In this document: one piece after another, positions 1 to 27,069 of the stretch
Layout of the letters: every line of letters begins with the position of its first letter
Numbering within the stretch: the stretch's first letter is position 1
DNA from: a virus
Taxonomy: Duplodnaviria; Heunggongvirae; Uroviricota; Caudoviricetes
DNA length: 27,160 nucleotides
Virus record (IMG/VR): IMGVR_UViG_2778261088_000006
Strand: one strand, 5' to 3'
Translations under genes and position numbers: made by a program
The notes under the pieces: generated by a model
What the model was told of the DNA's origin: nothing
Seen by the model: only the letters and a program-made list of their open reading frames with translations
Databases searched by the model: none

Positions 1-77
1 GGTAAGCAGAGTTTTTGAAATGTAAGGCCTTTGAATAAGACAAAAGGCTGCCTCATCGCTAACTTTGCAACAGTGCC
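1..77 (+). mobile_element. IS26 right end (partial; element continues left of the window): 3' end of tnp26 plus 14-bp terminal inverted repeat
   Basis: Bases 2-25 encode ...VSRVFEM-stop, the C-terminus of the IS26 transposase as I recall it; bases 64-77 TTTGCAACAGTGCC are the reverse complement of the IS26 terminal IR GGCACTGTTGCAAA; the intervening bases also match my memory of the IS26 end. Not database-verified. Confidence 0.85.
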
Positions 78-185
78 ATCATAGATATTGTCCCGTTCGA
101 CACCTGCGGCGCGCAAGGCGTCGTGCTGCAGGTCGAGAGACTGCGAGCCATCGGCTTTGGAGACGCGGGCATATCCGATCAGCAT
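78..185 (-). pseudogene. tnpR: 5' fragment (36 codons) of a serine-recombinase resolvase gene, truncated by IS26
   Basis: Reverse complement from 185 reads ATG CTG ATC GGA TAT GCC CGC GTC TCC... = MLIGYARVSKADGSQSLDLQHDALRAAGVERDNIYD, a typical resolvase/invertase N-terminus with the catalytic-serine motif YARVS. The frame runs directly into the IS26 IR at 77. Divergent from tnpA as in Tn3-family elements. Confidence 0.7.
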
Positions 186-310
186 GTATCACAAACGTTG
201 GTTTGAGGCGGCGCTTCGGCCACGATTGCATTGACCTCTGGAAGTGTATCTCAACCAGCTTCATAAACAAAGCGTCTTGAACGCTATCAGATTTTGAAAA
301 AGGAACATGT
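186..310. promoter_or_regulatory. tnpR-tnpA divergent intergenic region, expected to hold the res site and divergent promoters
   Basis: 125-bp spacer between divergently oriented tnpR (start 185, minus) and tnpA (start 311, plus). Tn3-family elements with this layout place res here. Individual res subsites were not delimited. Confidence 0.4.
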
Positions 311-3196
311 ATGCCGCGTCGCGTCACTCTAACCGATCGGCAGAAAGACGCGCTGTTGCGCTTGCCGACTTCACAGACGGATTTGCTCAAGCACTATACG
401 CTGAGTGATGAAGACCTTGGGCATATCAGGCTGCGTCGGCGCGCTCACAACAGGTTCGGCTTCGCCCTGCAATTGTGTGTCCTGCGCTATCCCGGCCGGG
501 TGCTGGCTCCAGGCGAACTGATCCCTGCAGAGGTCATCGAATTTATCGGAGCGCAGCTTGGCCTGGGTGCCGACGATCTCGTAGACTATGCTGCCCGCGA
601 GGAAACACGGCACGAGCATCTTGCCGAGTTACGGGGGCTCTACGGCTTCCGCACCTTCTCCGGACGTGGTGCGAGCGAGCTGAAGGAATGGTTGTTCCGA
701 GAAGCCGAGATGGCGGTGTCGAACGAGGATATCGCCCGTCGCTTCGTAGCCGAGTGCCGACGCACCCGCACTGTCCTTCCCGCGACATCCACGATCGAGC
801 GGCTTTGTGCCGCGGCTCTCGTCGATGCCGAGCGACGCATCGAGACGAGGATCGCCAGTCGGCTGCCTATGTCGATCCGAGAACAGTTGCTGGCATTGCT
901 CGAGGAGACGGCTGATGATCGGGTGACCCGTTTTGTGTGGCTGCGCCAGTTCGAGCCTGGCTCGAACTCTTCGTCGGCCAACCGGCTGCTCGACCGGCTC
1001 GAATATCTGCAACGCATCGATCTCCCCGAGGATCTGCTTGCCGGCGTTCCTGCCCATCGGGTGACTCGTCTGCGCAGGCAGGGTGAACGGTATTATGCCG
1101 ACGGCATGCGCGATCTCCCGGAGGACAGGCGGCTTGCGATCTTGGCTGTTTGCGTCTCGGAATGGCAGGCGATGTTGGCCGACGCAGTGGTCGAAACCCA
1201 CGACCGGATCGTCGGCCGTCTCTACCGTGCTTCGGAGCGTATTTGCCATGCAAAGGTCGCAGACGAAGCGGGGGTGGTGCGTGACACCCTGAAATCCTTC
1301 GCCGAGATCGGGGGCGCCCTGGTCGATGCACAGGATGATGGCCAGCCGCTGGGCGATGTCATCGCGAGTGGGTCAGGGTGGGACGGCTTAAAAACCCTTG
1401 TTGCAATGGCAACCAGGCTGACCGCCACCATGGCCGACGATCCGCTCAATCATGTGCTCGACGGTTATCACCGCTTCCGCCGATACGCTCCACGCATGTT
1501 GCGCCTGCTCGATCTGCGAGCTGCGCCCGTTGCACTGCCGCTTCTGGAAGCGGTGACGGCCCTTCGTACCGGTTTGAACGATGCCGCGATGACCAGCTTC
1601 TTGCGGCCCAGCTCGAAATGGCATCGCCACCTTCGGGCCCAGAGGGCTGGCGACGCTCGCCTATGGGAGATCGCGGTGCTGTTCCATCTGCGCGATGCGT
1701 TCCGCTCCGGAGATGTCTGGCTTACTAGGTCCCGGCGCTATGGCGATCTGAAACACGCACTCGTTCCGGCACAATCCATCGCGGAAGGCGGTCGTCTCGC
1801 TGTGCCATTGCGGCCGGAGGAATGGCTGGCAGACCGGCAAGCTCGCCTCGACATGCGGTTGCGCGAGCTTGGCCGTGCCGCTCGCGCAGGCACGATCCCG
1901 GGCGGGTCGATTGAAAACGGCGTTCTGCATATCGAGAAACTCGAAGCCGCCGCGCCGACAGGCGCCGAAGATCTGGTGCTCGATCTCTACAAGCAGATCC
2001 CGCCCACGCGCATCACCGATCTCCTGCTGGAGGTGGATGCGGCGACCGGCTTCACCGAAGCGTTCACCCATCTGCGCACAGGAGCACCCTGCGCTGACCG
2101 GATCGGGCTAATGAACGTTATCTTGGCGGAAGGGATCAACCTCGGCTTGCGCAAAATGGCGGATGCGACAAACACCCACACCTTCTGGGAATTGATCCGC
2201 ATTGGACGGTGGCATGTCGAGGGCGAAGCCTATGACCGGGCGCTGGCCATGGTGGTCGAGGCACAGGCAGCGTTACCCATGGCCCGGTTCTGGGGCATGG
2301 GCACGTCGGCTTCGAGCGACGGACAGTTCTTCGTCGCTACAGAGCAAGGTGAGGCCATGAACCTGGTCAACGCGAAATATGGCAATACCCCGGGCCTGAA
2401 AGCCTATAGCCACGTCTCCGACCAATATGCGCCGTTCGCAACCCAGGTGATTCCTGCAACGGCAAGCGAAGCGCCTTACATCCTCGATGGCCTGCTGATG
2501 AACGATGCTGGACGCCATATCCGCGAGCAGTTCACCGACACGGGCGGCTTCACCGATCACGTCTTTGCCGCATGTGCCATTCTCGGCTACCGGTTCGCTC
2601 CGCGCATCCGCGACCTGCCATCCAAACGGCTCTACGCGTTCAATCCGTCGGCCGCCCCGGCGCACCTGCGAGCGTTGATCGGCGGAAAGGTCAACCAAGC
2701 CATGATCGAGCGCAATTGGCCCGACATCCTGCGCATCGCCGCCACCATTGCTGCCGGGACCGTCGCGCCAAGCCAGATTCTGCGGAAACTCGCCTCCTAT
2801 CCGCGGCAGAACGAGCTCGCGACAGCCCTGCGGGAAGTCGGTCGCGTCGAGCGCACCCTGTTCATGATCGACTGGATTCTGGATGCCGAACTCCAACGGC
2901 GTGCCCAGATCGGGCTCAACAAAGGCGAAGCTCATCATGCGCTGAAGCGGGCAATCAGCTTCCACCGCCGCGGTGAAATCCGCGACCGTTCCGCCGAAGG
3001 CCAGCATTACCGCATCGCCGGCATGAATCTGCTCGCCGCCATCATCATCTTCTGGAACACCATGAAGCTCGGCGAGGTCGTTGCAAACCAGAAACGCGAT
3101 GGAAAGCTGCTATCGCCCGATCTCTTGGCCCATGTTTCGCCGCTCGGATGGGAACACATCAATCTCACCGGAGAATATCGCTGGCCAAAGCCTTAG
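311..3196 (+). CDS. tnpA: Tn3-family transposase, 961 aa, apparently intact
   Basis: Uninterrupted 961-aa ORF in GC-rich DNA, N-terminus MPRRVTLTDRQKDALLRLP, size and composition typical of Tn3-family TnpA. ATG at 311 follows an AAGGA ribosome-binding site. The stop codon lies inside the terminal IR, as is usual in this family. Many opposite-strand ORFs here are GC artefacts. Confidence 0.9.
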   Translation: MPRRVTLTDRQKDALLRLPTSQTDLLKHYTLSDEDLGHIRLRRRAHNRFGFALQLCVLRYPGRVLAPGELIPAEVIEFIGAQLGLGADDLVDYAAREETRHEHLAELRGLYGFRTFSGRGASELKEWLFREAEMAVSNEDIARRFVAECRRTRTVLPATSTIERLCAAALVDAERRIETRIASRLPMSIREQLLALLEETADDRVTRFVWLRQFEPGSNSSSANRLLDRLEYLQRIDLPEDLLAGVPAHRVTRLRRQGERYYADGMRDLPEDRRLAILAVCVSEWQAMLADAVVETHDRIVGRLYRASERICHAKVADEAGVVRDTLKSFAEIGGALVDAQDDGQPLGDVIASGSGWDGLKTLVAMATRLTATMADDPLNHVLDGYHRFRRYAPRMLRLLDLRAAPVALPLLEAVTALRTGLNDAAMTSFLRPSSKWHRHLRAQRAGDARLWEIAVLFHLRDAFRSGDVWLTRSRRYGDLKHALVPAQSIAEGGRLAVPLRPEEWLADRQARLDMRLRELGRAARAGTIPGGSIENGVLHIEKLEAAAPTGAEDLVLDLYKQIPPTRITDLLLEVDAATGFTEAFTHLRTGAPCADRIGLMNVILAEGINLGLRKMADATNTHTFWELIRIGRWHVEGEAYDRALAMVVEAQAALPMARFWGMGTSASSDGQFFVATEQGEAMNLVNAKYGNTPGLKAYSHVSDQYAPFATQVIPATASEAPYILDGLLMNDAGRHIREQFTDTGGFTDHVFAACAILGYRFAPRIRDLPSKRLYAFNPSAAPAHLRALIGGKVNQAMIERNWPDILRIAATIAAGTVAPSQILRKLASYPRQNELATALREVGRVERTLFMIDWILDAELQRRAQIGLNKGEAHHALKRAISFHRRGEIRDRSAEGQHYRIAGMNLLAAIIIFWNTMKLGEVVANQKRDGKLLSPDLLAHVSPLGWEHINLTGEYRWPKP

Positions 3197-3229
3197 CGTA
3201 GGATTCCGCCCCCTCCCGCAAACGACCCC
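3192..3229. repeat. 38-bp Tn3-family terminal inverted repeat (right end of transposon)
   Basis: Reverse complement of 3192-3229 is GGGGTCGTTTGCGGGAGGGGGCGGAATCCTACGCTAAG: outer GGGG and inner ACGCTAAG are the conserved ends of Tn3-family 38-bp IRs. GC-rich sequence stops and AT-rich DNA begins just beyond 3229. The partner IR is not in the window. Confidence 0.55.
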
Positions 3230-3564
3230 AGAAAGCAATCAAGTTACCGCGCAAGGAATCCGGCAAATACATTCTCCACCAAAGCATCTTCGATTCCGAA
3301 CACGATAAAAAAGGCGATGAATTTTTCAACATCAACTGGAGCGAAATAACGACAGAGCATGTTCTGACGTTACTATGTTGCTTTGCGACGGAATACAACA
3401 ACGTTGCCAGCGGCGACTACATCAGGGCAATGGCTGGAGAAGTTGAGGACCGCCAAGAACCATCGTTACTAAGTCCACTGATTAACATAATTCTGGGCAC
3501 CCAGATACTGGAACAAAAAAAAGTGCCGAAAGGGGTATTAACAGGCAAGCATAATTATTTTTAA
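3230..3564 (+). pseudogene. 3' remnant (about 111 codons, no start codon) of a gene interrupted by the transposon insertion
   Basis: Frame beginning at 3230 is open to TAA at 3562-3564 in AT-rich DNA where stops are otherwise frequent; it has no plausible start and begins exactly at the transposon IR. Translation ...GDEFFNINWSEITTEHVLTLLCCFATEYNNVASGDYIRAMAGEVEDRQEPSLLSPLINIILGTQILEQKKVPKGVLTGKHNYF. Same strand as the downstream RelA/SpoT gene. Product not recognised. Confidence 0.35.
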
Positions 3565-3657
3565 CAATTATATGCAGTAATTTTGTGGTTATATTCTCCA
3601 TTGATTTTCTAACCGCTTTATCATTAGATGTAACAGCATGTAAATCATTTAAAATGG

Positions 3658-4794
3658 ATGAAAGCAATGGGGAATGAAGTTTATCAAAGTCAAAAATGCA
3701 AGTTGAAATATTCAAAATCTCAAATTGATAGGGCTGCTCAATTGATAAGGCACGGGTGTAGTGACGAAGAAAGGCAGCAAGCTATTGAAATGATACAAAA
3801 TTTCCGTGAGCTGCATCTTTATCCATTAATGCTCATGAAAAATCATTTAGCAAGAGCAGCTGCTAAGGTTGACAAAGACAAAAAGATTCTCGTTGCAAGA
3901 AGACTTAAGCGACTTTCTACCATAATAGATAAACTAGAGCGTCCTAGTCTTGATGGAGGCAGAACTAGCAATGCAATTAAATTAACACGGATGCAGGACG
4001 TTGGCGGATGTAGGGCCATTGTCAGAAACTTAGACCAGTTGATACAGCTAAAGGAACGTCTTTTAAAAAGCAAATCTGTTCATAGGATTGTTAAAGAGTA
4101 TGATTATCTTACTCCCAAAGACAGCGGCTATAGTGGAATCCACCTTGCATACAGTTGCTTCGATCAGAAAGAGGAGCAATATCCGTGGCGAAAAACAAAG
4201 ATTGAGATACAGTTAAGAACTCAATTGCAGCATGCTTGGGCTACTAGCCTTGAAATAATTGATACCCTTGAAGGTATCAAGCTGAAAACTTCAAGTGAAG
4301 GGCATCCAGAATGGAGACGATTTTTCTATCTAGCCGGATGTCTTGTAGCGCACGACGAAAAAGCCTGCACTCTTGATGAGCTAGTTGTATCTCAGTATGA
4401 AGGCGAGCTTAAAGAGCTGGAACGGACTTTATCTGTACGGAGGAAACTAAGCACATACACCCTCGCCTTAAATTTAACTTCTGACGCGAATTTGATTAAG
4501 AAGTTGCCAAAAAATCATAAGGGGCATTACTTAGTAACAATGAGAAATGCAGAAAACAAGCCCAATACAAAAAACAAAAAAATGTTCCTAGTGTCTGTTC
4601 GCGCATTTAAAACAAAAGAAGCAGATGAAGCCCTTGAGGCCTTAAATAAAGACGATTCTGATCCTAATGTATTGATATCTGTTCTCGTTGCTACAGATAA
4701 CATTAAGTCACTAAAAAAAGCCTACCCCAACTATTTTGGCTCAACAAACCAGTTTACAAAATTCTTAGATAAGCATCTTCGTAACGAAGGATAG
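3658..4794 (+). CDS. RelA/SpoT-domain nucleotidyltransferase with C-terminal extension; candidate fused toxSAS (CapRel-like) defence protein
   Basis: 378-aa ORF with the RelA/SpoT synthetase motifs in order: RLKRLSTIIDKLER (aa 81-94), DVGGCRAIV (114-122), KDSGYSGIHL (154-163), EIQLRTQLQHAWA (183-195). About 180 residues follow the catalytic core. An alternative start ATG lies at 3667. Confidence 0.8.
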   Translation: MKAMGNEVYQSQKCKLKYSKSQIDRAAQLIRHGCSDEERQQAIEMIQNFRELHLYPLMLMKNHLARAAAKVDKDKKILVARRLKRLSTIIDKLERPSLDGGRTSNAIKLTRMQDVGGCRAIVRNLDQLIQLKERLLKSKSVHRIVKEYDYLTPKDSGYSGIHLAYSCFDQKEEQYPWRKTKIEIQLRTQLQHAWATSLEIIDTLEGIKLKTSSEGHPEWRRFFYLAGCLVAHDEKACTLDELVVSQYEGELKELERTLSVRRKLSTYTLALNLTSDANLIKKLPKNHKGHYLVTMRNAENKPNTKNKKMFLVSVRAFKTKEADEALEALNKDDSDPNVLISVLVATDNIKSLKKAYPNYFGSTNQFTKFLDKHLRNEG

Positions 4795-4800
4795 TTGCTT

Positions 4801-4829
4801 AATTTTGCCCGGTAATTCCGGGCAAAATT
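4801..4829. terminator. Perfect hairpin between convergent genes; probable bidirectional terminator
   Basis: AATTTTGCCCGG-TAATT-CCGGGCAAAATT: 12-bp perfect stem with 5-nt loop, 7 nt after the RelA/SpoT stop and immediately after the stop of the minus-strand gene at 4831. Confidence 0.45.
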
Positions 4830-4830
4830 G

Positions 4831-5079
4831 TCAATCTGCATTCAGGAGCAATGCGTTATCTATGATGATCTGCTCCCATTCTTCGAATGCCCGGTCGCGG
4901 ACGCCCTGGGGAACGCTGTTAGTTTTGAAATCGACGACCGTACGCCATTTCCCGTCCGGACGGTACATGCGCAGAGCTTTACTTCCCCCTTCCCTGCGCA
5001 CCTCAACGTTATGCTTGTCAGCAAACTCTTGTAATGCTCGTAGCGTCCCATGCTTTACTGTGTAGTATCGCTTTTTCAA
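4831..5079 (-). CDS. lxc: Small protein, 82 aa; position matches P1 Lxc
   Basis: ORF overlapping the upstream ulx-like gene by 4 nt (ATGA) and lying downstream of darB on the same strand, the order I recall for P1 (lxc, ulx, darB). Symbol assigned by synteny only. Confidence 0.55.
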   Translation of the reverse strand: MKKRYYTVKHGTLRALQEFADKHNVEVRREGGSKALRMYRPDGKWRTVVDFKTNSVPQGVRDRAFEEWEQIIIDNALLLNAD

Positions 5080-5516
5080 GTTTTCTCTCCAGCCTGTGCC
5101 AAGGCTTCAACTTCCAAATCGTAAGACTCAAACTCATAGTCCTGGTCGTCAACCTCTTCAGGCACTGGCAGTAAATGCCAGGCTGAGTATATCTGACCAT
5201 TATCAAAACGCTCCTGGCTGTAGAGCGTCGCGGCTATGAGCGTCAGCGCCGGACGGTCATAACGGTAAATTTTGCGAACGTCACGGTCAACGAGACGACC
5301 GAAATTACCATAACCGCGCTCCAGTAATAATTTTTTAATTTCCGGCCAGTATGGACCATAGCTGCGGTACAGGCGGGGATTTTTCAGTAATCGCCCGCGT
5401 AGCCCTGACAGGAAGAAATCAACGTATTCGTCTTCTGTCTTTCCTAACAACGCTGTACGGAGTACCGCCTCAAGATATGTTTTATTCGGTTTTATTGTAT
5501 CAGATAGTGTGGCCAT
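5076..5516 (-). CDS. ulx: 146-aa protein; position matches P1 Ulx
   Basis: ORF immediately downstream of darB on the minus strand (darB stop 5550, this start 5516). Symbol assigned by synteny only. Confidence 0.55.
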   Translation of the reverse strand: MATLSDTIKPNKTYLEAVLRTALLGKTEDEYVDFFLSGLRGRLLKNPRLYRSYGPYWPEIKKLLLERGYGNFGRLVDRDVRKIYRYDRPALTLIAATLYSQERFDNGQIYSAWHLLPVPEEVDDQDYEFESYDLEVEALAQAGEKT

Positions 5517-5549
5517 ATTATGCGACGCCCGGCGAACCGGGCGCTCCTG

Positions 5550-8500
5550 TTATGCGTATTGTTGGATGACGGCCAGAACGTCCGCCACGTTGTGTTTTGT
5601 CTCGATAATCCACCAGTTACCCGGGAAATCGCTGTTCTTCGCCTTCGCTGGCAGCCAGCGAGCGCCGAATTTCGCCTTGATTGCGTCTTTCGCACGGAAA
5701 AGAACGCCTTTCATGCCTGAGGCTTCCTGAAGCCCAAATACCTCGCCAGCGGCGAATTTTGGTGCGTACATCATCTTCAGGTCGGCGGTGGATACGCGAT
5801 AATTCAGACCAAGAGACTGAGCTATGCTGGTGGCATCACCCTGTATTGATGATAACTCTTCTTGTTTCTCGTTTCTGGCGGCAATCTCTTCCTCCGTGAT
5901 GTTGCCAAGGGCCAGGTTTATCCGATCAGCGTCGGCCTGTTTCTCTTCATCGGTGCGCCCGGCAAGAACCGTGTTAATTCTCTGCAATATCTCCACATGA
6001 TTCTTGCGCATGCTGAGCAATTCCGGCGTAACCTCGTTAAGATCCACCAGCCCAAGGATGGCAAGGTCGGAAAACATTGATACCAGGTTGTAGGTCATGC
6101 GATAGCTGAGTTGACCATAGGCTGATGGCAACTGCACCGCATCCATTTTATAGGCATCCATAAATTTAGAGCCGTCGTTTACGACATCCGCAATTGCCGG
6201 TGTGATTTTTCCTGTGGTGGCGGCCTCCCTGATTGCTGTTACCCACGATTGAGTCAGCGCGGAAACTGCATGATTCAGATTGGCTTTGCGTTCTGCTGCA
6301 ATGCGCGCGCTTGCAGCGTCCATTGACTGTTTGATCTCGTCTTTATTGCTGTAAATGCCAATGGTGCCAAACTGTGCTGTGGTGATCTCATAATCTGACG
6401 CCCGGAACTCATTGGTACCGAAAATGGCATTGGTGACTTCAAGTTCAGAATCCCCGTTACGAGTAGCCCCCTGGCTTGTTTTTTCCGGCATTCTGGCGAT
6501 CGCATCCGCTATTTTCTCCTGAATTGCTTCAGGGGATAGCGTATCTCCGTATGACGCGATTACATCGCCATAATTGGAGCCAAACAGTTCAACCAGGAAT
6601 GTTTCTGCCGAACGGATCTGGCGGTTATTCCCTTCCGACATCATACCAAGCACCCATTTTGCAATTGACGACTTCAGCGCGCCGTCACGGCGATCCGGGT
6701 AAACCGCATGCTTCAGTGGGTCCGTATAGGTACCAACAAAATCGATGCTATAGCCTGACTCTGTAGTCTGAACGCCGTATGAGTCAGTGATTTTGATCAT
6801 GCCGCGCTGCTGGAAACGGTAGAAATCGTCACAGGAAATGATGTCGTTAATCCCGGCGATGGAGACGCCACCACTGATTTTCTGCATAACAGCATCTTCA
6901 TCGGGAGTTACATCCACCTGTTTATCCAGCGTCTTCACATCCCAGTTACCCGATTTGGTGCCTCTTAAGGTAAAGATGATCTCCACGTCTGCGCGCTGGC
7001 TGTCGAAGTCCAACGACTTAATGCGAACGATATCACCGGCACAATCGTAGTATTGGCCTACACGCCATGAGCGATCGCCGATAACAAGGAACTCATTCGC
7101 ATGGTTAACCAGATCAGGATCAACATCCAGAATGCCTTTATTTATTGCATCCTCCACCAGCGGGCGCAGGCGTTTGATATCCGTCGCGGCCTTCTGAGTA
7201 CGGTTCAATAATTTCTCATAGCGGGAGATGGCCTGAGAGATATTAGCCTTGCGCTGAATGGCGCTTTTCAACGACGCGCGATACTGTGCTAACAACGTAC
7301 GGTCTGTGTGATGGACGCTACCCCAGCGGGCTTTCCAGTCTGCGTTATCAGCTGCTTTGGCCATTACCGCCTGTTTGAATTTAGCTACCTCGGCGGTGGT
7401 CTTTTCAAGTTCCGCTTTGCTTCGCTTTAATTCAGCGGTAAGTACCTCCACATCCTCGCCAGCTGCGTGCTGCGCCTTGATGTAATTCTGAAGGTCGATA
7501 GTAGCCTGTTCTTTCTGGCGAGCGCGTTTCGCAGCTTTCGCCTTATCCATTTGAACCTGCATCATTGCCAGACGTTCGCCGTCATCCTTCGCGGTATACA
7601 TCTGCATTTCGATCATGTCATTGGCGTCGGCGTTCTCCATTTCCGACTTATCTGAACGGAGGATATCGGAGATCCAGCCTGCTTTACGCTTCAGCGTCTT
7701 CAATCGGTATTCATCGAAAGACCCCTTGCCGCAGTAGTAGTGAACGCGAACGCTTGCACGGTTGGAGCCAACTCGAGCACCGCGACCGTTACGCTGTGCG
7801 ATACTGGCTGGTGTCCATGGCAACGTCAGATGATGGATGTCAGTCGTTCCTCGATGCAGGTTGATACCCACCTCTGCCTTTTTGTTGCAGATGATGATCG
7901 GAGTCCGGCCCTCCTGGAAGTCGGCTGCAATCTTTTCCAGACCGCCCAACGACATTTCATTCTGCTGCGCGATATAGGCGTCATACAGAGCCATTTGCTC
8001 GTTGTATTTCGCTATCTGTGCATCTGTTGGTTCATCCGGTAACTCTTTCGGCGGTTTAACCGCTTTCAGTTTCTTACCGGTTTTACCTGCCTCGGCAACC
8101 GTCTGAGCATTCAGGATCCCCACCTTTGAAGGTTCAAGGTTAAGAGCATTGCAGATAATGCGCTTGAGCTTCTGGTGCTGCGTTTTTTCGTCCGTGAAGA
8201 TGATTTGCTTACCTTCCGGGAAAAACTCCTTCAGCGTGGCGATCAGCTTCACGTATTTGGGCGTAACGGGGTGAGTTACAGTCTGTTCGTCAATGCCAAA
8301 CTTGGCCAAGCGCTTATTCACTTCCTGCTCGAACGCTTCCGGAACCTGCAACTGAATAAACTCGCCCTTATCTATCAGGGAGTATTGCGATTGCTGCGTG
8401 ATTGAATCATCACTGTCGTCGTCTTCGCTGGTGGCTTGTTTGGGCAAACTGTCCGCCAGCTGCTGCACCGCATCGGCGTACTCCGGCAGGAAACGATAGG

Positions 8501-11500
8501 TGATCCGGCGATAGTACAGGTCCATGTCAGTACATACGCGGTCCATATCCCTGATTATTGAGAAGATCGGACGGGCTTTCTCGTGCTCAATCACTCCGTC
8601 TTCATCGACCGAGGTCGTTACGCCATTGTTGGCTTTGGCCGCCGCTTCCGCCTGCTGACGCAATTCTTCATACGCCGCCAGTTGTTCTTCAGTAAGTGGT
8701 GCATCCTGCTGGTGTTCGTCCAGCTCCGGGATCTCCACGGTATCCTTAACGTCTTCCGCCGTTTTAAGCGTTGTCCAGCGATGGAATATGCCGCGCAGCG
8801 CATCAAGGTTTTCAAAGCCCACCAGCGCCATTTTTTCTTCAACTTCACCGCTGATTTTCTGTACCGTTTCCAGCCTGGTCTTGCCGAAGAATTTAACGAA
8901 GTCATCAGGACCGTAGATCCCCATCTTCTGCCAGTATTCCTTCGGCAGAACATGAGAAAGCATGTTGTATGCATCGATCGGGGTGTTAACGACTGGCGTT
9001 GCAGTCAGGAGAACCGGTCCACGCCCACCATTCTTTTTCATCAGGTACGCGTTTTTGATTGCCATATCTCGCGCCGATTGCGCCACCGCGCTGGTGGGCA
9101 GATAGGCCAGCTGTGACGCTTCGCGACCATTTTTATAGCTATTGCGGTAGTTGTGGCCTTCGTCAGCAATCACGCTGTCGAAGCCCATATCCTCAAAGTA
9201 CGGATACTTCTCTGCTTTTTCGGTACCGGTATCTGAATACTCCGACAATACCCGGCGACGCGCCGCCTCTTTGCGATGGGAATCGGAGTCCATTGCGCTG
9301 GCCACACGCCCGGCAGCAACGAAGTCATAAAGCATGTCTTGTGCATGCTCATCTACGGTGTCATCACGTAGCGGAATGCGGGCGTATTGTTCTTTGGTAA
9401 ACACGACTGCACGGTAGTTTGAGTGCGGGATCGCGTTCATCCGCGCCGTGATAGTGGCTTCATCTGCCAGCTTAAGGGCATCGCGCATAACGGGAGTGCC
9501 ATCTGCACCAACGACAGGTTTACCGTTCTCATCGAGCACCGGCACCTGGCGAATCTGATCGCCATCCATCAGCACATCAAGACCGACGAACAGGTAGTTA
9601 CTGAATGCCTCTTCACTCAGAAACTCTTTTGCTTCGTAATACCAGTTTTCCAGCACTGATTTAGGCACTACATACGCAGTACGGGTGGAACGACCGTTCT
9701 CATAGTTGAACGCCTCAAGCGCCAGCGCGGTCGTGGTTTTACCCAGCCCGGTACCGAAGCCCAGGATGCCGCGCCCATCTTCGGACAGTCGGCGCACCTC
9801 GCTATTCTGGTAATCAAATGGCTGTCGCTTACCGCTTAATCCCTTCAACCCAAGCGGATCGCCAGAGTGTTCATACGGGATATTGCTATTGAAAACATCG
9901 TTGTATTTGGCAACCAGCTCATCGTAGCGATCGTGCGTCTTGATCCACTTATTGAACTGGTCCTCAAGCAGTGCCATCTGCTCGCGGTAGCCGTTCGCCG
10001 TCGCGCTATCTTTGCCACCGATACGCGCACCATTGAGATACTTTTCCAGCTGTGCCGGGAACCCGGTCGCGTTTTCACCTGATTTACGGTCCCACTCGTA
10101 GCGGATCTCGCCTGTTTCTTTATCCTTGCGCTGGACGACACCGTATCGGTGCCCGACGAACAGACCATCACCACCGTGATAGGTGTCAGAAACCATTTCG
10201 TCGCCTTCCAGCTGCACTGACTGCACATAGCGCAGATCCGGATAGCCGTTTTCCTGCAAAAACTCCAGAATGACGGAGCGGTCGAACCAACGGCTATTGA
10301 GCTTAAAGCGGATATTCTCTGCTGGCGTCTTGATGCGCTTCTCTTCGATCGCTGCCAGCTGATTAAGGACGTTGTTCTTTACTGGACCGTCGGGGAGTGT
10401 GGCAAGGAATTCCTGTTTTGGAGCCACTATCTCGTTAATGTCGCCGCTGGTGGCGCGGGCGAACGGAACAATCCCGCCATACGGTGAAACCGCAATACCA
10501 GGGGTGCTGGCCAATAAATTAAGCAACTCTTCATCACTGGCTGGCAGTTCGCCGGTAAACGCAAGGCGGAAATCATCGAGCTGGATTGGATCGCGGGTAA
10601 GATCGCTATAGAGATAACGCAGGGTGTCCTGATAGCTGGTGGAGTCATAACTGGCGCTGGAATCATGCGTAACCAGCTTTCCTGCCAGCTCGTCAGAAAT
10701 AGTGCCATCCAGCTTAATTGCACCACGGAAAGCAAACCAGGAGCGCGCACCGCTTCCCGATAATTTAGCTATCGGACCGCGACCGGGGTTACCAAAACGG
10801 TCAATCTCTGCCTGCAAACGGGACACCAGAGAAAGGCGCTGTTGTTCGATTTGTTCAGCACTATGCCCGGCGGCCTTCATGTCCTGATATTCAATTAACA
10901 TCCGGCCAATCATCGCCCCGCGATACAAGCGTTCACGGTATTTTTCAGGCTGGCTGTTAATCCAGTCCACCAGCTGCACCATATCGTCGCTGATTGATGT
11001 GGTGTACTTATCGCGGACATTTGCCATCTGGGTAAATGTCATGCCGAGACGGCCTTCTGTTGTAGTCAGGTTACGCTGAAGAGCCTCCCAGCTATCCGCG
11101 CCATAACTGGCAGCATCGATCTTAAGTTCCTTCCCGGCATCAGCTTCAATCCAGCGACCACCAGCATATTTTTGCCATACGCCATTAATCAGGCGCATTT
11201 CCCCTTCACCAACAACGTCTGCGGTCGGTGACGGTTCAGCCATATCGAGCAAAGACCAGTCGATACGGCTTTCGAAACGATGAATCAGCTTCGCTTTAAG
11301 AGACTGGTTATCAATCTGACCGTCGGCACGAACCTCAATACGCCCCTGGAAGCCCTTTTCCTGGGTGCCATGAACAAACCGGCGGCCATCCTTTTCAAAC
11401 CACTTGCCAGAAATAAACGTTGGCCAAAGCACATTTGCCGATTCAAGAGTGCTTTCATCCACCAGGGGGATTTTCTCAGCCATCTCTGCCGGATGTTTGC

Positions 11501-12317
11501 GCATCAGCACCACATCTACGACCGTACTGGTCCCGTTTGCGTCAAAAGTACCGGTAGGCAGGCGGTGGGCACCAAGAAATTCAGCTTTCCGTGATAGGCG
11601 CAGGCGTAACCGCTTCATGTTTGAACCTGAAACAATGGACGGCGGCACAATCACACACATGAATCCGCCAGGCTTTATCTTGTCCAGCATGCGGAGCATG
11701 AAGTAAGAACCCATGTCCGTTTCTTCTGCGTAAGGCTTATCGATGTTGCGTGTGTTATCACGACCACCGAACGGAACGTTACCCACAACATGGTCGAATG
11801 AATCGTTAGGCGTGCTTACAGCCAGTTGTTCGAACGGGGAAATCTGTACGCTGTCTTCCGGATGTAACAGCTGGTTTATACGACCGGAAACACTGCTGAT
11901 CTCAGTCGCGGTCATCACCGTACCAACCGGTTTTGTCTCATTAAAAACGCCGGTGCCCGCCGATGGTTCCAGAGTGTTACCTACGTCCGCGCCATAGAGC
12001 TTCATGATCTCCCAGACGCCTTCAGCAATAGGCTTTGGTGTGTAATATTCGGAGACGGACCCGCCAATGCCGCCTTCACCAGTGTACCCGGCCAGGATCT
12101 GGCGCTGTTCATCTGTCAGTGTCGCGCCGTCCACCAGCGAATTAAGCAAATCTATCGCCTTCTGATTCGCCTCCCGGCGCAGTCGGTCATAGCTTTTGCC
12201 TTCCACCTTTTCCACGCCGTATTTAATCGGCGCTCGGTGAGATGTTATTGCCCTAATGTATTTCAATATTTCGCTGACACTTGAACAGCGAAACACCCCC
12301 ATAGATAGCTTGTTCAT
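5550..12317 (-). CDS. darB: Giant 2255-aa methyltransferase-helicase fusion; P1 DarB-like antirestriction protein
   Basis: Single 6.8-kb ORF. N-terminal N6-adenine methyltransferase motifs (LEPSAGTGVF SAM-binding, VVGNVPFGG catalytic). Central SF2 helicase motifs (GFGTGLGKTT Walker A, VIADEGHNYRN DExH box, LLTATPVVN motif III, QRNGRGAR motif VI). Length and architecture match P1 DarB as I recall it; portal, protease, lyz and ssb follow in the P1 order. Confidence 0.88.
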   Translation of the reverse strand: MNKLSMGVFRCSSVSEILKYIRAITSHRAPIKYGVEKVEGKSYDRLRREANQKAIDLLNSLVDGATLTDEQRQILAGYTGEGGIGGSVSEYYTPKPIAEGVWEIMKLYGADVGNTLEPSAGTGVFNETKPVGTVMTATEISSVSGRINQLLHPEDSVQISPFEQLAVSTPNDSFDHVVGNVPFGGRDNTRNIDKPYAEETDMGSYFMLRMLDKIKPGGFMCVIVPPSIVSGSNMKRLRLRLSRKAEFLGAHRLPTGTFDANGTSTVVDVVLMRKHPAEMAEKIPLVDESTLESANVLWPTFISGKWFEKDGRRFVHGTQEKGFQGRIEVRADGQIDNQSLKAKLIHRFESRIDWSLLDMAEPSPTADVVGEGEMRLINGVWQKYAGGRWIEADAGKELKIDAASYGADSWEALQRNLTTTEGRLGMTFTQMANVRDKYTTSISDDMVQLVDWINSQPEKYRERLYRGAMIGRMLIEYQDMKAAGHSAEQIEQQRLSLVSRLQAEIDRFGNPGRGPIAKLSGSGARSWFAFRGAIKLDGTISDELAGKLVTHDSSASYDSTSYQDTLRYLYSDLTRDPIQLDDFRLAFTGELPASDEELLNLLASTPGIAVSPYGGIVPFARATSGDINEIVAPKQEFLATLPDGPVKNNVLNQLAAIEEKRIKTPAENIRFKLNSRWFDRSVILEFLQENGYPDLRYVQSVQLEGDEMVSDTYHGGDGLFVGHRYGVVQRKDKETGEIRYEWDRKSGENATGFPAQLEKYLNGARIGGKDSATANGYREQMALLEDQFNKWIKTHDRYDELVAKYNDVFNSNIPYEHSGDPLGLKGLSGKRQPFDYQNSEVRRLSEDGRGILGFGTGLGKTTTALALEAFNYENGRSTRTAYVVPKSVLENWYYEAKEFLSEEAFSNYLFVGLDVLMDGDQIRQVPVLDENGKPVVGADGTPVMRDALKLADEATITARMNAIPHSNYRAVVFTKEQYARIPLRDDTVDEHAQDMLYDFVAAGRVASAMDSDSHRKEAARRRVLSEYSDTGTEKAEKYPYFEDMGFDSVIADEGHNYRNSYKNGREASQLAYLPTSAVAQSARDMAIKNAYLMKKNGGRGPVLLTATPVVNTPIDAYNMLSHVLPKEYWQKMGIYGPDDFVKFFGKTRLETVQKISGEVEEKMALVGFENLDALRGIFHRWTTLKTAEDVKDTVEIPELDEHQQDAPLTEEQLAAYEELRQQAEAAAKANNGVTTSVDEDGVIEHEKARPIFSIIRDMDRVCTDMDLYYRRITYRFLPEYADAVQQLADSLPKQATSEDDDSDDSITQQSQYSLIDKGEFIQLQVPEAFEQEVNKRLAKFGIDEQTVTHPVTPKYVKLIATLKEFFPEGKQIIFTDEKTQHQKLKRIICNALNLEPSKVGILNAQTVAEAGKTGKKLKAVKPPKELPDEPTDAQIAKYNEQMALYDAYIAQQNEMSLGGLEKIAADFQEGRTPIIICNKKAEVGINLHRGTTDIHHLTLPWTPASIAQRNGRGARVGSNRASVRVHYYCGKGSFDEYRLKTLKRKAGWISDILRSDKSEMENADANDMIEMQMYTAKDDGERLAMMQVQMDKAKAAKRARQKEQATIDLQNYIKAQHAAGEDVEVLTAELKRSKAELEKTTAEVAKFKQAVMAKAADNADWKARWGSVHHTDRTLLAQYRASLKSAIQRKANISQAISRYEKLLNRTQKAATDIKRLRPLVEDAINKGILDVDPDLVNHANEFLVIGDRSWRVGQYYDCAGDIVRIKSLDFDSQRADVEIIFTLRGTKSGNWDVKTLDKQVDVTPDEDAVMQKISGGVSIAGINDIISCDDFYRFQQRGMIKITDSYGVQTTESGYSIDFVGTYTDPLKHAVYPDRRDGALKSSIAKWVLGMMSEGNNRQIRSAETFLVELFGSNYGDVIASYGDTLSPEAIQEKIADAIARMPEKTSQGATRNGDSELEVTNAIFGTNEFRASDYEITTAQFGTIGIYSNKDEIKQSMDAASARIAAERKANLNHAVSALTQSWVTAIREAATTGKITPAIADVVNDGSKFMDAYKMDAVQLPSAYGQLSYRMTYNLVSMFSDLAILGLVDLNEVTPELLSMRKNHVEILQRINTVLAGRTDEEKQADADRINLALGNITEEEIAARNEKQEELSSIQGDATSIAQSLGLNYRVSTADLKMMYAPKFAAGEVFGLQEASGMKGVLFRAKDAIKAKFGARWLPAKAKNSDFPGNWWIIETKHNVADVLAVIQQYA

Positions 12318-12369
12318 TGGTAATCCTTAACAAGTGACTAGTGTTAAATTCCGTTAAAACACGATGCGA

Positions 12370-15114
<2,745 letters not shown>

Positions 15115-16621: not shown

Positions 16622-16818
16622 ATGTGTAAAAAACGACTGAAAGAAAAGCGGTGGTCCAGACGCCGACAAAAGCACGAACTCGCTCAAAAACGCCAAAGTT
16701 GGCAATGGCACGCGCTTTTAACGAATAGAACACCCCGAGATATTGCTTTCGCTGGTGGGAAAACATTCCTAACCAACCTGAAGGCGCAATACATCAGTTT
16801 TTAAGCAGAGAAAAGACT

Positions 16819-17613
16819 ATGGCAGCACAAAATACTAAAACCATTCAATACCGCCTACGTAATGGCCAGAGTGTCGAAGTGACCATCAATAATGATGGAG
16901 TGCCAGGCGAAAAGGTTTCTATCTCTGATCTGGCTATCGAAAAAACCATCATGTGCCACCTTGGCTTTACTGAAGAAGTGAGCAAAAAGCATGGTGTAGC
17001 TATCTGGCGAACAATGGATACTGGCATGCGCAGATTCATTACCGCTCGTACCCCAGGTATGACCATGATGGACCTCATGCAGATTGCACCGCTGTTTGAG
17101 TGTGAACCTTTGGATGTATTCAGCAATCCAGCTATCTGCCAGCAGTTATATGGTGAGATGAAACTCGCTGTTACCCCCATTGTGCTGCATGAAGGATCGC
17201 TTGCTGGCGTATGGAAAGTAGAGCGAATTTCAAGCTACATGCCCTTCCACATCCATGTCAACGGCGTAATCGCAGGTGAAAATCAACCTGTTTCAGTTAC
17301 AAAGTCAGACCTCAAGCGCGCAATTCTTGAAGCAAGTTGTCGAGTTATCGGCCTTGGCAAACAGTCTTATGTTTCCTTCCCGGCTGGCCCTGAAGGCCCG
17401 GCAGAAATTCTGATTATGGATGCCGATCTGCTCTGGCAAATACAGTTTCTGATTGGCAAAAGCATCATCCGCGCTGAAGAACTCGATCAGTACATTACCT
17501 GCACGATGACAGATGAAGTCAAAAGTGTGGCTATAGCCAAGGCCCGGAACCTGTGTCGTGCTGCATTAACAGAACTGCAAGAAAACACCACGGAAGAGGT
17601 GGAAAGTGACTAA
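16819..17613 (+). CDS. Hypothetical protein, 264 aa; first gene of an unassigned two-gene operon
   Basis: ATG preceded by GAGAAAAG; clean ORF; its stop overlaps the start of the next gene. No motif recognised. Confidence 0.6.
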   Translation: MAAQNTKTIQYRLRNGQSVEVTINNDGVPGEKVSISDLAIEKTIMCHLGFTEEVSKKHGVAIWRTMDTGMRRFITARTPGMTMMDLMQIAPLFECEPLDVFSNPAICQQLYGEMKLAVTPIVLHEGSLAGVWKVERISSYMPFHIHVNGVIAGENQPVSVTKSDLKRAILEASCRVIGLGKQSYVSFPAGPEGPAEILIMDADLLWQIQFLIGKSIIRAEELDQYITCTMTDEVKSVAIAKARNLCRAALTELQENTTEEVESD

Positions 17614-18700
17614 TCGTATACAGAATGAACCTGCCTGGTTAGCACTGATAGAACAGTATAAAGACAATTGGGAACTGGCAGCGAAAGAGTTGCTTGATAT
17701 TGAGTTAACACCTCATCAAGCAAAAATTATTAACGCGATAAAGAACACCGGAGCCAAAGTCACTGCCACCACACCACATGGTATTGGGGAAACCTCTATT
17801 GTGGCAGTGATTAGCATCCTGCAAACAATACTGTATTCGTGTTCCCGTACAGTGGTTGTTTCTCCTGCTATTAACGATAGTCGAAAAACAATAATTGACT
17901 ATATGTTCCGTTATTGGGAGCGAGTTACCCAAAAACACCCTTTTCTTGGCAATCATTTCAGAATGCACCCTGACAAAGGGTTGGTGCATATCAGTGAAAT
18001 ATGGGGATGCGTCTATATAACCTATTGTCTGAATAACGAAGTGTCTCTGGCTGGTTTTACTGGACCGCACGATCTTTTCATCGTTATTAACTCGGCGGAA
18101 ATCAGCGATCGCGCTCATGCAGTGATAACTGGCAATTTAACCAATTATGACTCGCGCCTGCTGTTGCTGTCGAAACCATCGGAACGCGAGAAAGGGTACT
18201 TTTATGATTCGCATCACCGGTTGGCCCATAGTAAAAACAATCCTGCTGGTTTTTTCACGGCGATAACTCTAAACACAGAGGATTCACCTCTCGTTTCTGA
18301 AGCATATCTTGAATTCAAAGCCAAAGAGTTTGGTGGGCGCAATAGCGATGAATATCGCCGATTGATCTTGGGGAAATTTCCCGGGATTCGGGAGTTGATG
18401 GAAAAGTCATCTGTTCCCCGTAATATGCACTTCACAATGACTGACGGTAGTAAATGGGTAGTGCCTACGATCGTGATCGCCAAACACCATGCGAAACATC
18501 ACGCTCAAAAACACAACTCCAGCACATTAGACTGGCTGAAGGCCTATACAATACCGTTATTCTCGGCAAACCATAACGCTATAGCTGAATGGGCTAAACA
18601 AATCCCCTGGCAGGATGTGGCTGAAGAGGCATTTGTCGAAAAACCACCAAGAGATTTGCACGAGCACTGTTGGCTGACATCAGAAAAGAGCTTCTCGTGA
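17606..18700 (+). CDS. Hypothetical protein, 364 aa, with degenerate P-loop-like and Walker-B-like segments
   Basis: GTG start overlapping the upstream stop by 8 nt, preceded by GGAAGAGGTGG. Contains TTPHGIGETS (P-loop-like but with E where the lysine is expected) and DLFIVINSAE about 90 residues later; His-rich stretch HHAKHHAQKH. Confidence 0.6.
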   Translation: MTNRIQNEPAWLALIEQYKDNWELAAKELLDIELTPHQAKIINAIKNTGAKVTATTPHGIGETSIVAVISILQTILYSCSRTVVVSPAINDSRKTIIDYMFRYWERVTQKHPFLGNHFRMHPDKGLVHISEIWGCVYITYCLNNEVSLAGFTGPHDLFIVINSAEISDRAHAVITGNLTNYDSRLLLLSKPSEREKGYFYDSHHRLAHSKNNPAGFFTAITLNTEDSPLVSEAYLEFKAKEFGGRNSDEYRRLILGKFPGIRELMEKSSVPRNMHFTMTDGSKWVVPTIVIAKHHAKHHAQKHNSSTLDWLKAYTIPLFSANHNAIAEWAKQIPWQDVAEEAFVEKPPRDLHEHCWLTSEKSFS

Positions 18701-18703
18701 GGT

Positions 18704-18733
18704 AAAAATCCCGCCGATTGGCGGGATTTCTTT
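18704..18733. terminator. Bidirectional rho-independent terminator between convergent transcription units
   Basis: AAAATCCCGCC-GATT-GGCGGGATTT followed by CTTT; lies between the stop of the plus-strand 364-aa gene (18700) and the stop of the minus-strand 102-aa gene (18732). Confidence 0.6.
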
Positions 18734-26444: not shown

Positions 26445-27017
26445 TTACAGCTCAGATTGAGTTTGGCGCTTCTCTACAGGATGATAACGATAAATCGTCG
26501 ATACACCGATATCGTAAATAATTGCCAACTGTTTCCTGCTGTAGCCATTTTCGATCAACCTCGCTATTTGCTCATGTTGTTCTTTTGTCAACTTCGGGCG
26601 ACGTCCGCCAATGCGTCCCTGTTCGCGTGCAGCTGCCAGTCCGGCCAGTGTTCTCTCAACAATTAATTCACGTTCCATTTCTGCTAAAGCACCCATGACA
26701 TGAAAAAAGAAACGCCCCATGGGTGTTGATGTGTCAATACTGTCTGTCAGACTACGGAAATTAACACCTTTTTCCCGCAACTCCTCTATAAGCGTGATAA
26801 GGTGTTTCATACTTCTGCCAAGCCTATCCAGCTTCCAGACAACCAGCGTATCTCCTTCTGATAACGTTCTGAGCAGCTTTTTCAAGCCTGGTCTGGCTGA
26901 CTTTGTTCCGCTTATTTTATCTTCAAAAATCAGTTCACATCCTGCGCAGTTCAGTGCATTTCTTTGTAAATCTGTGTTTTGGTCATTTGTTGACACACGA
27001 ATGTAGCCAATTTGCAT
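26445..27017 (-). CDS. cin: Site-specific DNA invertase (serine recombinase), P1 Cin-like
   Basis: Translation from the ATG at 27017 begins MQIGYIRVSTNDQNTDLQRNAL... with the Hin/Gin/Cin catalytic motif, the conserved LVVWKLDRLGRS and a C-terminal helix-turn-helix region (GYSRKQLAIIYDIGVSTIYRY). The ORF track starts 9 nt earlier at a TTG. A cix-like site and tail-fibre coding sequence follow. Confidence 0.9.
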   Translation of the reverse strand: MQIGYIRVSTNDQNTDLQRNALNCAGCELIFEDKISGTKSARPGLKKLLRTLSEGDTLVVWKLDRLGRSMKHLITLIEELREKGVNFRSLTDSIDTSTPMGRFFFHVMGALAEMERELIVERTLAGLAAAREQGRIGGRRPKLTKEQHEQIARLIENGYSRKQLAIIYDIGVSTIYRYHPVEKRQTQSEL

Positions 27018-27069
27018 GAAAAACAACCTCTTTGTTTAGTTAAAAATACATCGTTGGTATAGGTAGGGA

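What the first reader, a model, noticed from the sequence alone, without database searches (positions are those of the whole stretch)
3230..4830. AT-rich cargo island occupies the position where P1 carries its res-mod restriction genes
As I recall the P1 map, the Type III restriction-modification genes res and mod lie immediately upstream of lxc-ulx-darB. Here the DNA adjoining lxc is instead an AT-rich island carrying a different immunity-type gene, itself invaded by a GC-rich transposon. That suggests this is a variable defence slot in P1-like elements, exchanged between relatives.
Basis: inference. Interest (0 to 1): 0.55.

Follow-up and report, generated by a model that had tools for sequence, protein, structure and literature searches.

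The report
CapRel defence gene in P1's res-mod slot
In this P1-like phage-plasmid the place where phage P1 keeps its restriction-modification genes holds a single gene closely related to the well-studied CapRel anti-phage protein; this is one of at least 14 alternative fillings of a swap site already described as variable, so the finding is correct but ordinary.

Summary
Between the Tn3-family transposon end (3229) and the lxc stop codon (4831) the DNA has 39% G+C, against 50% for the backbone. P1 carries res-mod exactly here.

- 3230-3561 is not cargo. It is the 3' third of the backbone gene mat.
- The transposon sits inside mat (about codon 140 of 250), not inside the island.

The real cargo is 3562-4800 and holds one gene, 3667-4794. 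Its product is 75% identical over its full length to CapRelSJ46 (PDB 7ZTB), the fused toxin-antitoxin that senses phage capsid protein and pyrophosphorylates tRNA. All tested key residues are conserved, and the sensor domain is the most divergent part. SJ46 carries its capRel in the same slot.

Among 77 P1-like loci the mat/lxc gap falls into 14 classes:
- res-mod, two CapRel alleles, two SIR2 alleles, PIN, DUF2971 and a JukA-containing block;
- two GNAT alleles, EAL plus a partner, YaaC plus an NDT-like gene, and a lipoprotein;
- an empty 96-bp allele.

Cassette class is uncoupled from the flanking backbone haplotype, which indicates exchange by homologous recombination. Published work already lists res-mod as a low-GC variable region and reports CapRel in P1-like elements. 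Verdict: real, correctly interpreted in the main, already known.

The parts
1..3229 (+). End of IS26 followed by a Tn3-family transposon remnant. Not part of the defence cassette; it interrupts mat.
   Evidence: 100% identical over 1-3229 to an IS26 / Tn3-family tnpA module present in many multidrug-resistance plasmids. G+C 0.608. No PLSDB plasmid or complete E. coli genome has this transposon/mat junction.
311..3196 (+). Tn3-family transposase tnpA, 961 aa.
   Evidence: Pfam DDE_Tnp_Tn3 (E 1.4e-143) and DUF4158 (E 3.8e-54).
3192..3229 (-). Terminal inverted repeat of the Tn3-family element (GGGGTCGTTTGCGGGAGG... read on the minus strand). The outer end at 3229 is shown; the inner limit is approximate.
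   Evidence: Sequence read. Identity to unrelated plasmids stops at 3229.
3230..3561 (+). 3' fragment of mat (maturation control), the last 111 codons. The gene is truncated by the transposon at about codon 140 of 250.
   Evidence: 3225-3509 is 91.9% identical to P1 3129-3413 inside mat 2716-3468. The in-frame translation ends ...KVPKGVLTGKHNYF*, with the stop at 3559-3561.
3562..4800 (+). Cargo cassette proper: promoter/leader plus capRel. Low G+C (0.38).
   Evidence: No homology to P1. Same cassette at 99% or more identity in 83 of 5426 complete E. coli genomes, 85 of 89 places on plasmids, and in at least 30 listed PLSDB plasmids out of the 49 records covering >=80% of the query.
3667..4794 (+). 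capRel homologue, 375 aa (an alternative upstream ATG at 3658 gives 378 aa). It is a fused toxSAS toxin with a pseudo-zinc-finger antitoxin/sensor.
   Evidence: Pfam RelA_SpoT, E 2.8e-12. PDB 7ZTB (CapRelSJ46), E 5e-186, residues 4-374 aligned to 1-370. 75% identity by BLASTP. PADLOC PDC-S33, E 4e-86. R79, R116, Y155, L280, L307, Y352 and Y355 conserved.
4801..4829 (.). Perfect 12-bp-arm hairpin (AATTTTGCCCGG-TAATT-CCGGGCAAAATT), A/T-flanked on both sides. Probable bidirectional terminator shared by the convergent capRel and lxc genes.
   Evidence: Inverted repeat I5, 100% complementary. Fold -22.1 kcal/mol, z -5.4. A GCCCGG...CCGGGC-type hairpin precedes the lxc stop in several slot classes, including the empty one.
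4831..5079 (-). lxc, the right-hand backbone anchor of the slot.
   Evidence: 4833-15081 is 98.0% identical to P1 9752-20000. P1 annotation.
5076..5516 (-). ulx, a backbone gene.
   Evidence: Used as the probe that retrieved 80 IMG/VR loci.
5550..12317 (-). darB, a backbone anti-restriction gene, 2255 aa.

Best explanation
The window comes from a P1-like phage-plasmid. Its convergent backbone genes mat and lxc flank a recombination-exchangeable cargo slot.

In P1 the slot holds the EcoP1I type III restriction-modification genes res and mod. Here it holds a single-gene CapRel-type fused toxin-antitoxin defence system.

By homology to CapRelSJ46, the N-terminal toxSYNTH domain is held closed by the C-terminal pseudo-zinc-finger domain, whose YXXY motif blocks the ATP site. 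When a superinfecting phage makes a trigger protein, the sensor domain binds it. For CapRelSJ46 the triggers are the major capsid protein or the small protein Gp54 of phage Bas11. The enzyme then opens and pyrophosphorylates the 3' CCA ends of tRNAs, so translation stops and the infection aborts. This protects the lysogen population, and therefore the phage-plasmid.

The cassette is swapped between related elements by homologous recombination in the conserved flanks, not by a dedicated mobile-element mechanism.

Shown here: identity, position, conservation of key residues, polymorphism of the slot, and uncoupling of cassette class from the backbone.
Inferred: the enzymatic activity, the trigger, and the recombination mechanism.

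The adjacent IS26/Tn3-family resistance-region fragment is a separate, later event that broke mat.
For: Identity of the gene:
- Full-length match to the CapRelSJ46 crystal structure sequence 7ZTB (E 5e-186) and to 9ERV.
- 75% identity and 87% positives over 371 residues.
- Pfam RelA_SpoT and PADLOC PDC-S33.
- ATP-coordinating R79 and R116, G-loop Y155, hinge/loop L280 and L307, and the YXXY motif (Y352, Y355) are all conserved. Their roles are taken from PMC9712102.
- Identity is 77% in residues 1-269 but 63% in the pseudo-ZFD (residues 270-339), the published specificity determinant.
- No second ORF with a family hit lies in the slot, so there is no separate antitoxin gene.

Position:
- P1 order is mat-res-mod-lxc.
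- SJ46 carries capRel between mat and lxc.

Slot polymorphism:
- 14 classes among 77 loci, including an empty 96-110 bp allele.
- Annotated by Pfam and PADLOC.
- All cargoes are 0.33-0.43 G+C.

Exchange:
- Backbone identity within a class is about the same as between classes (98.31% vs 98.24% in distal darB).
- 29 pairs of backbones 99.8% or more identical carry different cassettes.
- The same cassette sits on backbones less than 97.5% identical.
- The left breakpoint varies inside the mat 3' end, while the right one is fixed at the lxc stop.
- No flanking direct or inverted repeats.

Literature:
- res-mod is 'highly variable region 1', of low G+C, among 54 P1-like phage-plasmids (PMC9603915).
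- CapRel, type III RM, dGTPase and PrrC are reported in P1-like phage-plasmids (bioRxiv 10.1101/2025.09.12.675607).
Against: - No experiment exists on this allele. 25% of its residues differ from the characterised protein, including a one-residue insertion and heavy substitution at about residues 295-306. I take that stretch to be the beta6-beta7 loop, placed around L307. Its trigger range is therefore unknown.
- The consensus scan found only a weak promoter-like site (3482-3509, inside the mat tail) upstream of the gene, and no strong Shine-Dalgarno sequence is evident.
- The recombination mechanism is inferred from population patterns only.
- The 77 loci come mostly from IMG/VR and may include near-duplicates, so class frequencies are rough.
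- Five slot classes (two GNAT, EAL, YaaC/NDT-like, lipoprotein) have no defence-model hit. 'Defence slot' is therefore not proven for every occupant.
Confidence: 0.9

Rival explanations
1. The RelA/SpoT-like gene is a plasmid-addiction (post-segregational killing) module or an alarmone synthetase. On this view it manipulates host physiology for the phage-plasmid's own maintenance and is not an anti-phage sensor.
For: It belongs to the toxSAS toxin-antitoxin lineage (Pfam RelA_SpoT). It sits on a low-copy plasmid prophage that benefits from stabilisation. P1's own res-mod at this site can also behave as an addiction module (general knowledge; PMC10879196 discussion).
Against: Toxin and antitoxin are one polypeptide. 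Differential decay of a separate antitoxin, the basis of post-segregational killing, is therefore not available. The 75%-identical prototype is non-toxic on its own, is activated by phage proteins and acts on tRNA (PMC9712102). The most divergent part is the trigger-binding domain, as expected for a sensor under an arms race.
Confidence: 0.05
2. The AT-rich segment is cargo brought in by, or together with, the adjacent GC-rich transposon. This is close to the reader's picture of an island 'invaded' by, or associated with, the transposon.
For: The two lie side by side, and 3230 is the first base after the transposon end.
Against: The transposon ends at its own terminal repeat at 3229, and the next 332 bp are mat backbone. 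The cassette with intact flanks occurs at 99% or more identity in 76 or more complete E. coli genomes, in many PLSDB plasmids and in phage vB_EcoM-673R5, with no record reproducing this transposon/mat junction. The transposon module occurs in hundreds of unrelated plasmids without the cassette.
Confidence: 0.02
3. The slot differences are decay products: deletion of an ancestral res-mod followed by drift. On this view there was no exchange of alternative functional cassettes.
For: An empty allele exists (7 of 77 loci). P1's own mod is IS5-disrupted.
Against: Cassettes share no sequence with res or mod. Each is an intact ORF with its own domain family. The same cassette recurs on divergent backbones, and near-identical backbones carry different cassettes.
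Confidence: 0.03

Closest known systems
CapRelSJ46 of Salmonella phage SJ46 (PDB 7ZTB; Zhang et al., Nature 2022, PMC9712102)
   Same: Same architecture and length (375 vs 373 aa) and 75% identity end to end. The same catalytic and autoinhibition residues are present (R79, R116, Y155, YXXY). The genomic slot between mat and lxc of a P1-like element is also the same.
   Different: A distinct allele. The slot DNA is only about 78% identical and forms a separate cluster. The pseudo-ZFD is 63% identical, with a one-residue insertion and many substitutions at about residues 295-306, which I place in the beta6-beta7 loop. S279K, K277I and R314K changes lie in or near published trigger-contact positions. 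Phage specificity is untested.
EcoP1I type III restriction-modification (res-mod) of phage P1
   Same: It occupies exactly the same mat/lxc interval. It is also low in G+C (0.36) and is also an anti-phage function carried by the prophage.
   Different: Unrelated proteins and mechanism: DNA methylation and cleavage versus abortive infection through tRNA modification. It is two genes of 5.1 kb on the minus strand, against one gene of 1.1 kb on the plus strand.
'Highly variable region 1 (res-mod)' of P1-like phage-plasmids (PMC9603915), and phage-encoded defence hotspots such as those of P2/P4 (Rousset et al. 2022, cited in PMC9712102)
   Same: Conserved core genes flank a low-GC interval whose content differs between otherwise near-identical elements and is rich in defence genes.
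   Different: The papers I read name the region as variable but do not catalogue its occupants. I did not read the Rousset paper itself.

Membership tests
CapRel (fused toxSAS toxin-antitoxin) | N-terminal RelA/SpoT-type small alarmone synthetase (toxSYNTH) fold | tested here: met
   Pfam PF04607, E 2.8e-12, above its cut-off. Also matches RelQ/RelP/YjbM structures.
CapRel (fused toxSAS toxin-antitoxin) | Catalytic and ATP-binding residues present (R79, R116, G-loop Y155 in SJ46 numbering) | tested here: met
   All three are identical in the global alignment. Their roles are from PMC9712102.
CapRel (fused toxSAS toxin-antitoxin) | C-terminal antitoxin (pseudo-ZFD plus anchors) fused in the same polypeptide, with the YXXY autoinhibition motif | tested here: met
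   The alignment to 7ZTB runs to residue 370 of 373. YPNY is conserved, as are L280 and L307.
CapRel (fused toxSAS toxin-antitoxin) | No separate antitoxin gene next to it | tested here: met
   Apart from a 76-aa antisense ORF inside capRel (334-564 of the slot, minus strand, not scanned against family libraries), capRel is the only ORF of 70 aa or more in the 1323-bp slot. The neighbours are mat and lxc.
CapRel (fused toxSAS toxin-antitoxin) | Phage-protein-triggered tRNA pyrophosphorylation that gives abortive infection | not testable with these tools
   Needs phage challenge and biochemistry. Inferred from 75% identity to the characterised protein.
P1-like phage-plasmid variable region 1 (mat/lxc cargo slot) | Flanked by the conserved backbone genes mat and lxc-ulx-darB, in P1 order | tested here: met
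P1-like phage-plasmid variable region 1 (mat/lxc cargo slot) | Alternative, mutually non-homologous contents in otherwise similar elements, including an empty state | tested here: met
   14 clusters among 77 loci. The empty allele is 96-110 bp in 7 loci.
P1-like phage-plasmid variable region 1 (mat/lxc cargo slot) | Contents are predominantly anti-phage defence genes | tested here: inconclusive
   Eight of the 13 non-empty classes are a known system (res-mod) or hit PADLOC models: CapRel x2, SIR2 x2, PIN (PDC-S34), DUF2971 (PDC-S31) and JukA. GNAT x2, EAL plus partner, YaaC plus NDT-like, and the lipoprotein have no defence hit.
P1-like phage-plasmid variable region 1 (mat/lxc cargo slot) | Exchange between relatives (cassette history differs from backbone history) | tested here: met
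   Within-class and between-class backbone identity are about equal. Near-identical backbones carry different cassettes, and the same cassette sits on divergent backbones. No formal recombination test was run.

The most novel reading that the evidence does not exclude
The mat/lxc gap of P1-like phage-plasmids may be a compact, mostly single-gene defence hotspot. Its uncharacterised occupants would then be new anti-phage genes: the roughly 200-aa GNAT acetyltransferase, the EAL-domain protein with a 244-aa partner, the YaaC-like protein with a nucleoside-deoxyribosyltransferase-like protein, and the 135-aa lipoprotein. The CapRel allele in this window, with its diverged sensor domain, may recognise a different set of phage triggers from CapRelSJ46.
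Probability: 0.45. Interest if true: 0.5.

Novelty: already known. Interest (0 to 1): 0.25.

Why it matters
It shows cleanly how a phage-plasmid trades one immunity system for another at a fixed address. The prototype CapRel gene comes from this very slot.

Practically, the slot is a short, well-bounded interval that can be read out of any P1-like contig using the mat and lxc anchors. That makes it a cheap place to look for further single-gene defence candidates and natural CapRel sensor variants.

For this particular element, the transposon has broken mat. That may impair its ability to grow as a phage; this is inferred, not tested.

None of this changes current understanding.

Tried and rejected
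- Flanking direct or inverted repeats, or att-like sites, around the cassette: only chance-level short repeats plus the terminator hairpin.
- Promoter and terminator consensus scan of 3200-5200: no more hits than in shuffles. It missed the obvious hairpin because that lacks a pure T-run.
- The small antisense ORFs 3165-3401 and 3482-3715: no Pfam hits, so treated as non-genes.
- Searching for the transposon/mat junction in PLSDB and in complete E. coli genomes, to identify the source replicon: no record covers it.
- Genome-contig scan with Ulx: only 3 loci, because the collection holds one genome per species, so it did not help the census.
- Loci with lxc but no mat within 10 kb (L006, L071, L086 and several contig ends): L071 is a rearranged backbone (antirepressor, lpa and a DUF968 protein follow lxc). 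L006 gave no informative domains. All were left out of the table.
- A first mafft-based backbone comparison timed out. It was replaced by query-anchored alignments.
- Two paper look-ups failed on a term shorter than three letters.
- Structure prediction and the large protein-database searches were not run, because a 75%-identical solved structure already answers the identity question.

Full report
**What is in the sequence.** The window is a P1-like phage-plasmid.
- From 4833 to 15081 it is 98.0% identical to P1 9752-20000 (lxc, ulx, darB, prt, pro). The rest continues in P1 order.
- Positions 1-3229 are foreign and GC-rich (0.608). They comprise the end of IS26 and a Tn3-family tnpA (311-3196; Pfam DDE_Tnp_Tn3, E 1.4e-143). 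This block is 100% identical to a module found in many resistance plasmids.
- The transposon's terminal repeat ends at 3229.
- Its G+C is 0.392, and 0.381 for the strict cargo. Backbone windows of the same size average 0.500 (sd 0.028, minimum 0.423), giving z = -4.3.

**Boundaries.** The first 332 bases (3230-3561) are not cargo.
- 3225-3509 matches P1 3129-3413 inside mat at 91.9%.
- The frame reads through 111 codons to a stop at 3559-3561.
- The transposon/mat junction corresponds to P1 3133|3134, about codon 140 of the 250-codon mat gene.
- So the transposon interrupts a backbone gene, not the island.
- No plasmid in PLSDB and no complete E. coli genome carries this junction, so the insertion is private to this element.
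- On the right, homology to P1 resumes at 4833, two bases into the lxc stop codon.
- Just before it lies a perfect 12-bp-arm hairpin at 4801-4829 (-22.1 kcal/mol, z -5.4). It is placed to terminate both convergent genes.

**The P1 map.** The annotated P1 record gives mat 2716-3468, res 3544-6456 (minus strand), the IS5-disrupted mod up to about 9780, then lxc 9750-9998, ulx and darB. The 1323-bp non-homologous segment here replaces 6338 bp of P1.

**The gene.** The only substantial ORF in the cargo is 3658/3667-4794.
- It has a RelA_SpoT domain.
- It matches the crystal-structure sequence of CapRelSJ46 (7ZTB) over its whole length (E 5e-186), with 75% identity and 87% positives.
- It hits the PADLOC candidate family PDC-S33.
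- CapRelSJ46 is annotated in phage SJ46 between the maturation control gene and lxc, which is the same slot.
- According to PMC9712102, CapRelSJ46 is a fused toxin-antitoxin. Its pseudo-zinc-finger C-terminus blocks the ATP site of the toxSYNTH domain until it binds a phage major capsid protein.
- A second trigger, Gp54 of Bas11, binds an overlapping surface (bioRxiv 10.1101/2024.05.10.593582).
- In the window protein R79, R116, Y155, L280, L307 and the YXXY tyrosines are all conserved.
- Identity is 77% in residues 1-269 but 63% in the pseudo-ZFD (270-339). There is a one-residue insertion and many changes at about residues 295-306, which I place in the beta6-beta7 loop.
- The enzyme and its autoinhibition are therefore very probably intact, while the trigger range may differ. 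The latter is inference.

**How common it is.** The cassette is found at 99% or more identity as follows:
- in 83 of 5426 complete E. coli genomes, 85 of 89 places on plasmids;
- in at least 30 of the listed PLSDB plasmids (49 records cover at least 80% of the query);
- in phage vB_EcoM-673R5, where frameshifted annotation splits it.

**Is the slot variable?** I used Ulx as a probe and fetched 80 IMG/VR loci with 10-kb flanks. I located the mat and lxc anchors in each. Seventy-seven loci had both anchors, counting P1, SJ46, 673R5 and the window. The intervening DNA clusters into 14 classes, annotated:

| Class | Loci | Size or length |
|---|---|---|
| SIR2-like | 12 + 2 (two alleles) | 434 aa |
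| res-mod | 11 | 5.1 kb |
| DUF2971 protein (PDC-S31) | 10 | |
| Empty | 7 | 96-110 bp |
| CapRelSJ46 type | 7 | |
| PIN_12 protein (PDC-S34) | 5 | |
| Lipoprotein, antirepressor, HTH and JukA block | 4 | 3.6 kb |
| GNAT acetyltransferase | 4 + 4 (two alleles) | |
| CapRel allele of this window | 4 | |
| EAL-domain protein plus a 244-aa partner | 3 | |
| YaaC-like plus nucleoside-deoxyribosyltransferase-like | 2 | |
| Lipoprotein | 2 | 135 aa |

- All cargoes have 0.33-0.43 G+C.
- Eight of the 13 occupied classes are a known defence system or hit defence-candidate models. Five do not.

**Junction anatomy.**
- In the empty allele the mat stop is followed after eight bases by a GCCCGG...CCGGGC hairpin, and then by the lxc stop.
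- Cassettes lie between the mat stop and a hairpin of this kind.
- The last 50 or so codons of mat remain homologous but diverge in a cassette-specific way. Similarity to P1 mat ends between positions 621 and 698 of 753, depending on class.
- The right junction is always at the lxc stop.
- There are no flanking repeats and no recombinase.

**Exchange.**
- Flanking backbone segments are no more alike within a cassette class than between classes. Distal darB gives 98.31% vs 98.24%, and cre gives 98.23% vs 97.85%.
- Dozens of pairs with 99.8% or more identical flanks carry different cassettes.
- The same cassette sits on flanks less than 97.5% identical.
- Only the part of mat next to the slot shows some linkage.
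- This pattern is expected if cassettes move between co-resident relatives by homologous recombination in mat and lxc. The mechanism itself is inferred.

**What is already known.**
- PMC9603915 lists res-mod as the first of eight 'highly variable regions' among 54 P1-like phage-plasmids and notes its low G+C.
- A 2025 survey found CapRel, type III RM, dGTPase and PrrC systems in P1-like elements, with CapRel more common in E. coli.
- The CapRel prototype was taken from SJ46.
- I found no paper in the searchable library that tabulates the occupants of this slot or describes the empty allele. That is a gap in cataloguing rather than a new kind of biology.

**Verdict.** The finding is correct in observation and in its main interpretation. 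Two corrections apply: the transposon is in mat, and the cargo starts at 3562. It is a known defence family in a known variable region, so novelty is low. The residual interest lies in the uncharacterised cassettes and in the natural sensor-domain variant.

Noticed in passing
window 17606-18700 (+): A 364-aa ORF with no Pfam or PADLOC hit occupies the place where P1 has IS1 and isaB (P1 22533-24243). isaA upstream is conserved (96% aa). This is the literature's 'variable region 2'; the local G+C of 0.459 was measured over 16650-18730, which also includes isaA.
   Followed up: partly
window 26445-27026 (-): A resolvase/invertase gene (193 aa; Pfam Resolvase plus HTH_7). It is only 71% identical in DNA to P1 cin and lies in the opposite orientation relative to lydA-lydB. 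This suggests a different or inverted tail-fibre invertible-segment module. The surrounding 25.6-27.1 kb is the lowest-GC backbone stretch (0.42).
   Followed up: partly
window 1-3229, and L002 2103-5447 (phage SJ46): Two independent Tn3-family insertions lie at or in mat, next to a capRel slot. Here it is an IS26/Tn3-family tnpA module; in SJ46 it is Tn1721 tnpR-tnpA immediately upstream of a shortened mat (213 aa annotated). The mat region may be a preferred or tolerated landing site for resistance transposons.
   Followed up: no
L071 10729-16769: In one IMG/VR P1-like contig, lxc is followed not by the slot and mat but by an antirepressor (ANT/ORF6N), two unknown ORFs, the late-promoter activator Lpa and a DUF968 protein. 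This is a rearranged backbone joining distant P1 regions at the lxc end of the slot.
   Followed up: partly
L003 6442-7541 (phage vB_EcoM-673R5): The same capRel allele is annotated there as two ORFs (a 'RelA/SpoT family protein' of 182 aa plus a hypothetical protein). This implies a frameshift or sequencing error in that record, or a genuinely broken copy.
   Followed up: no
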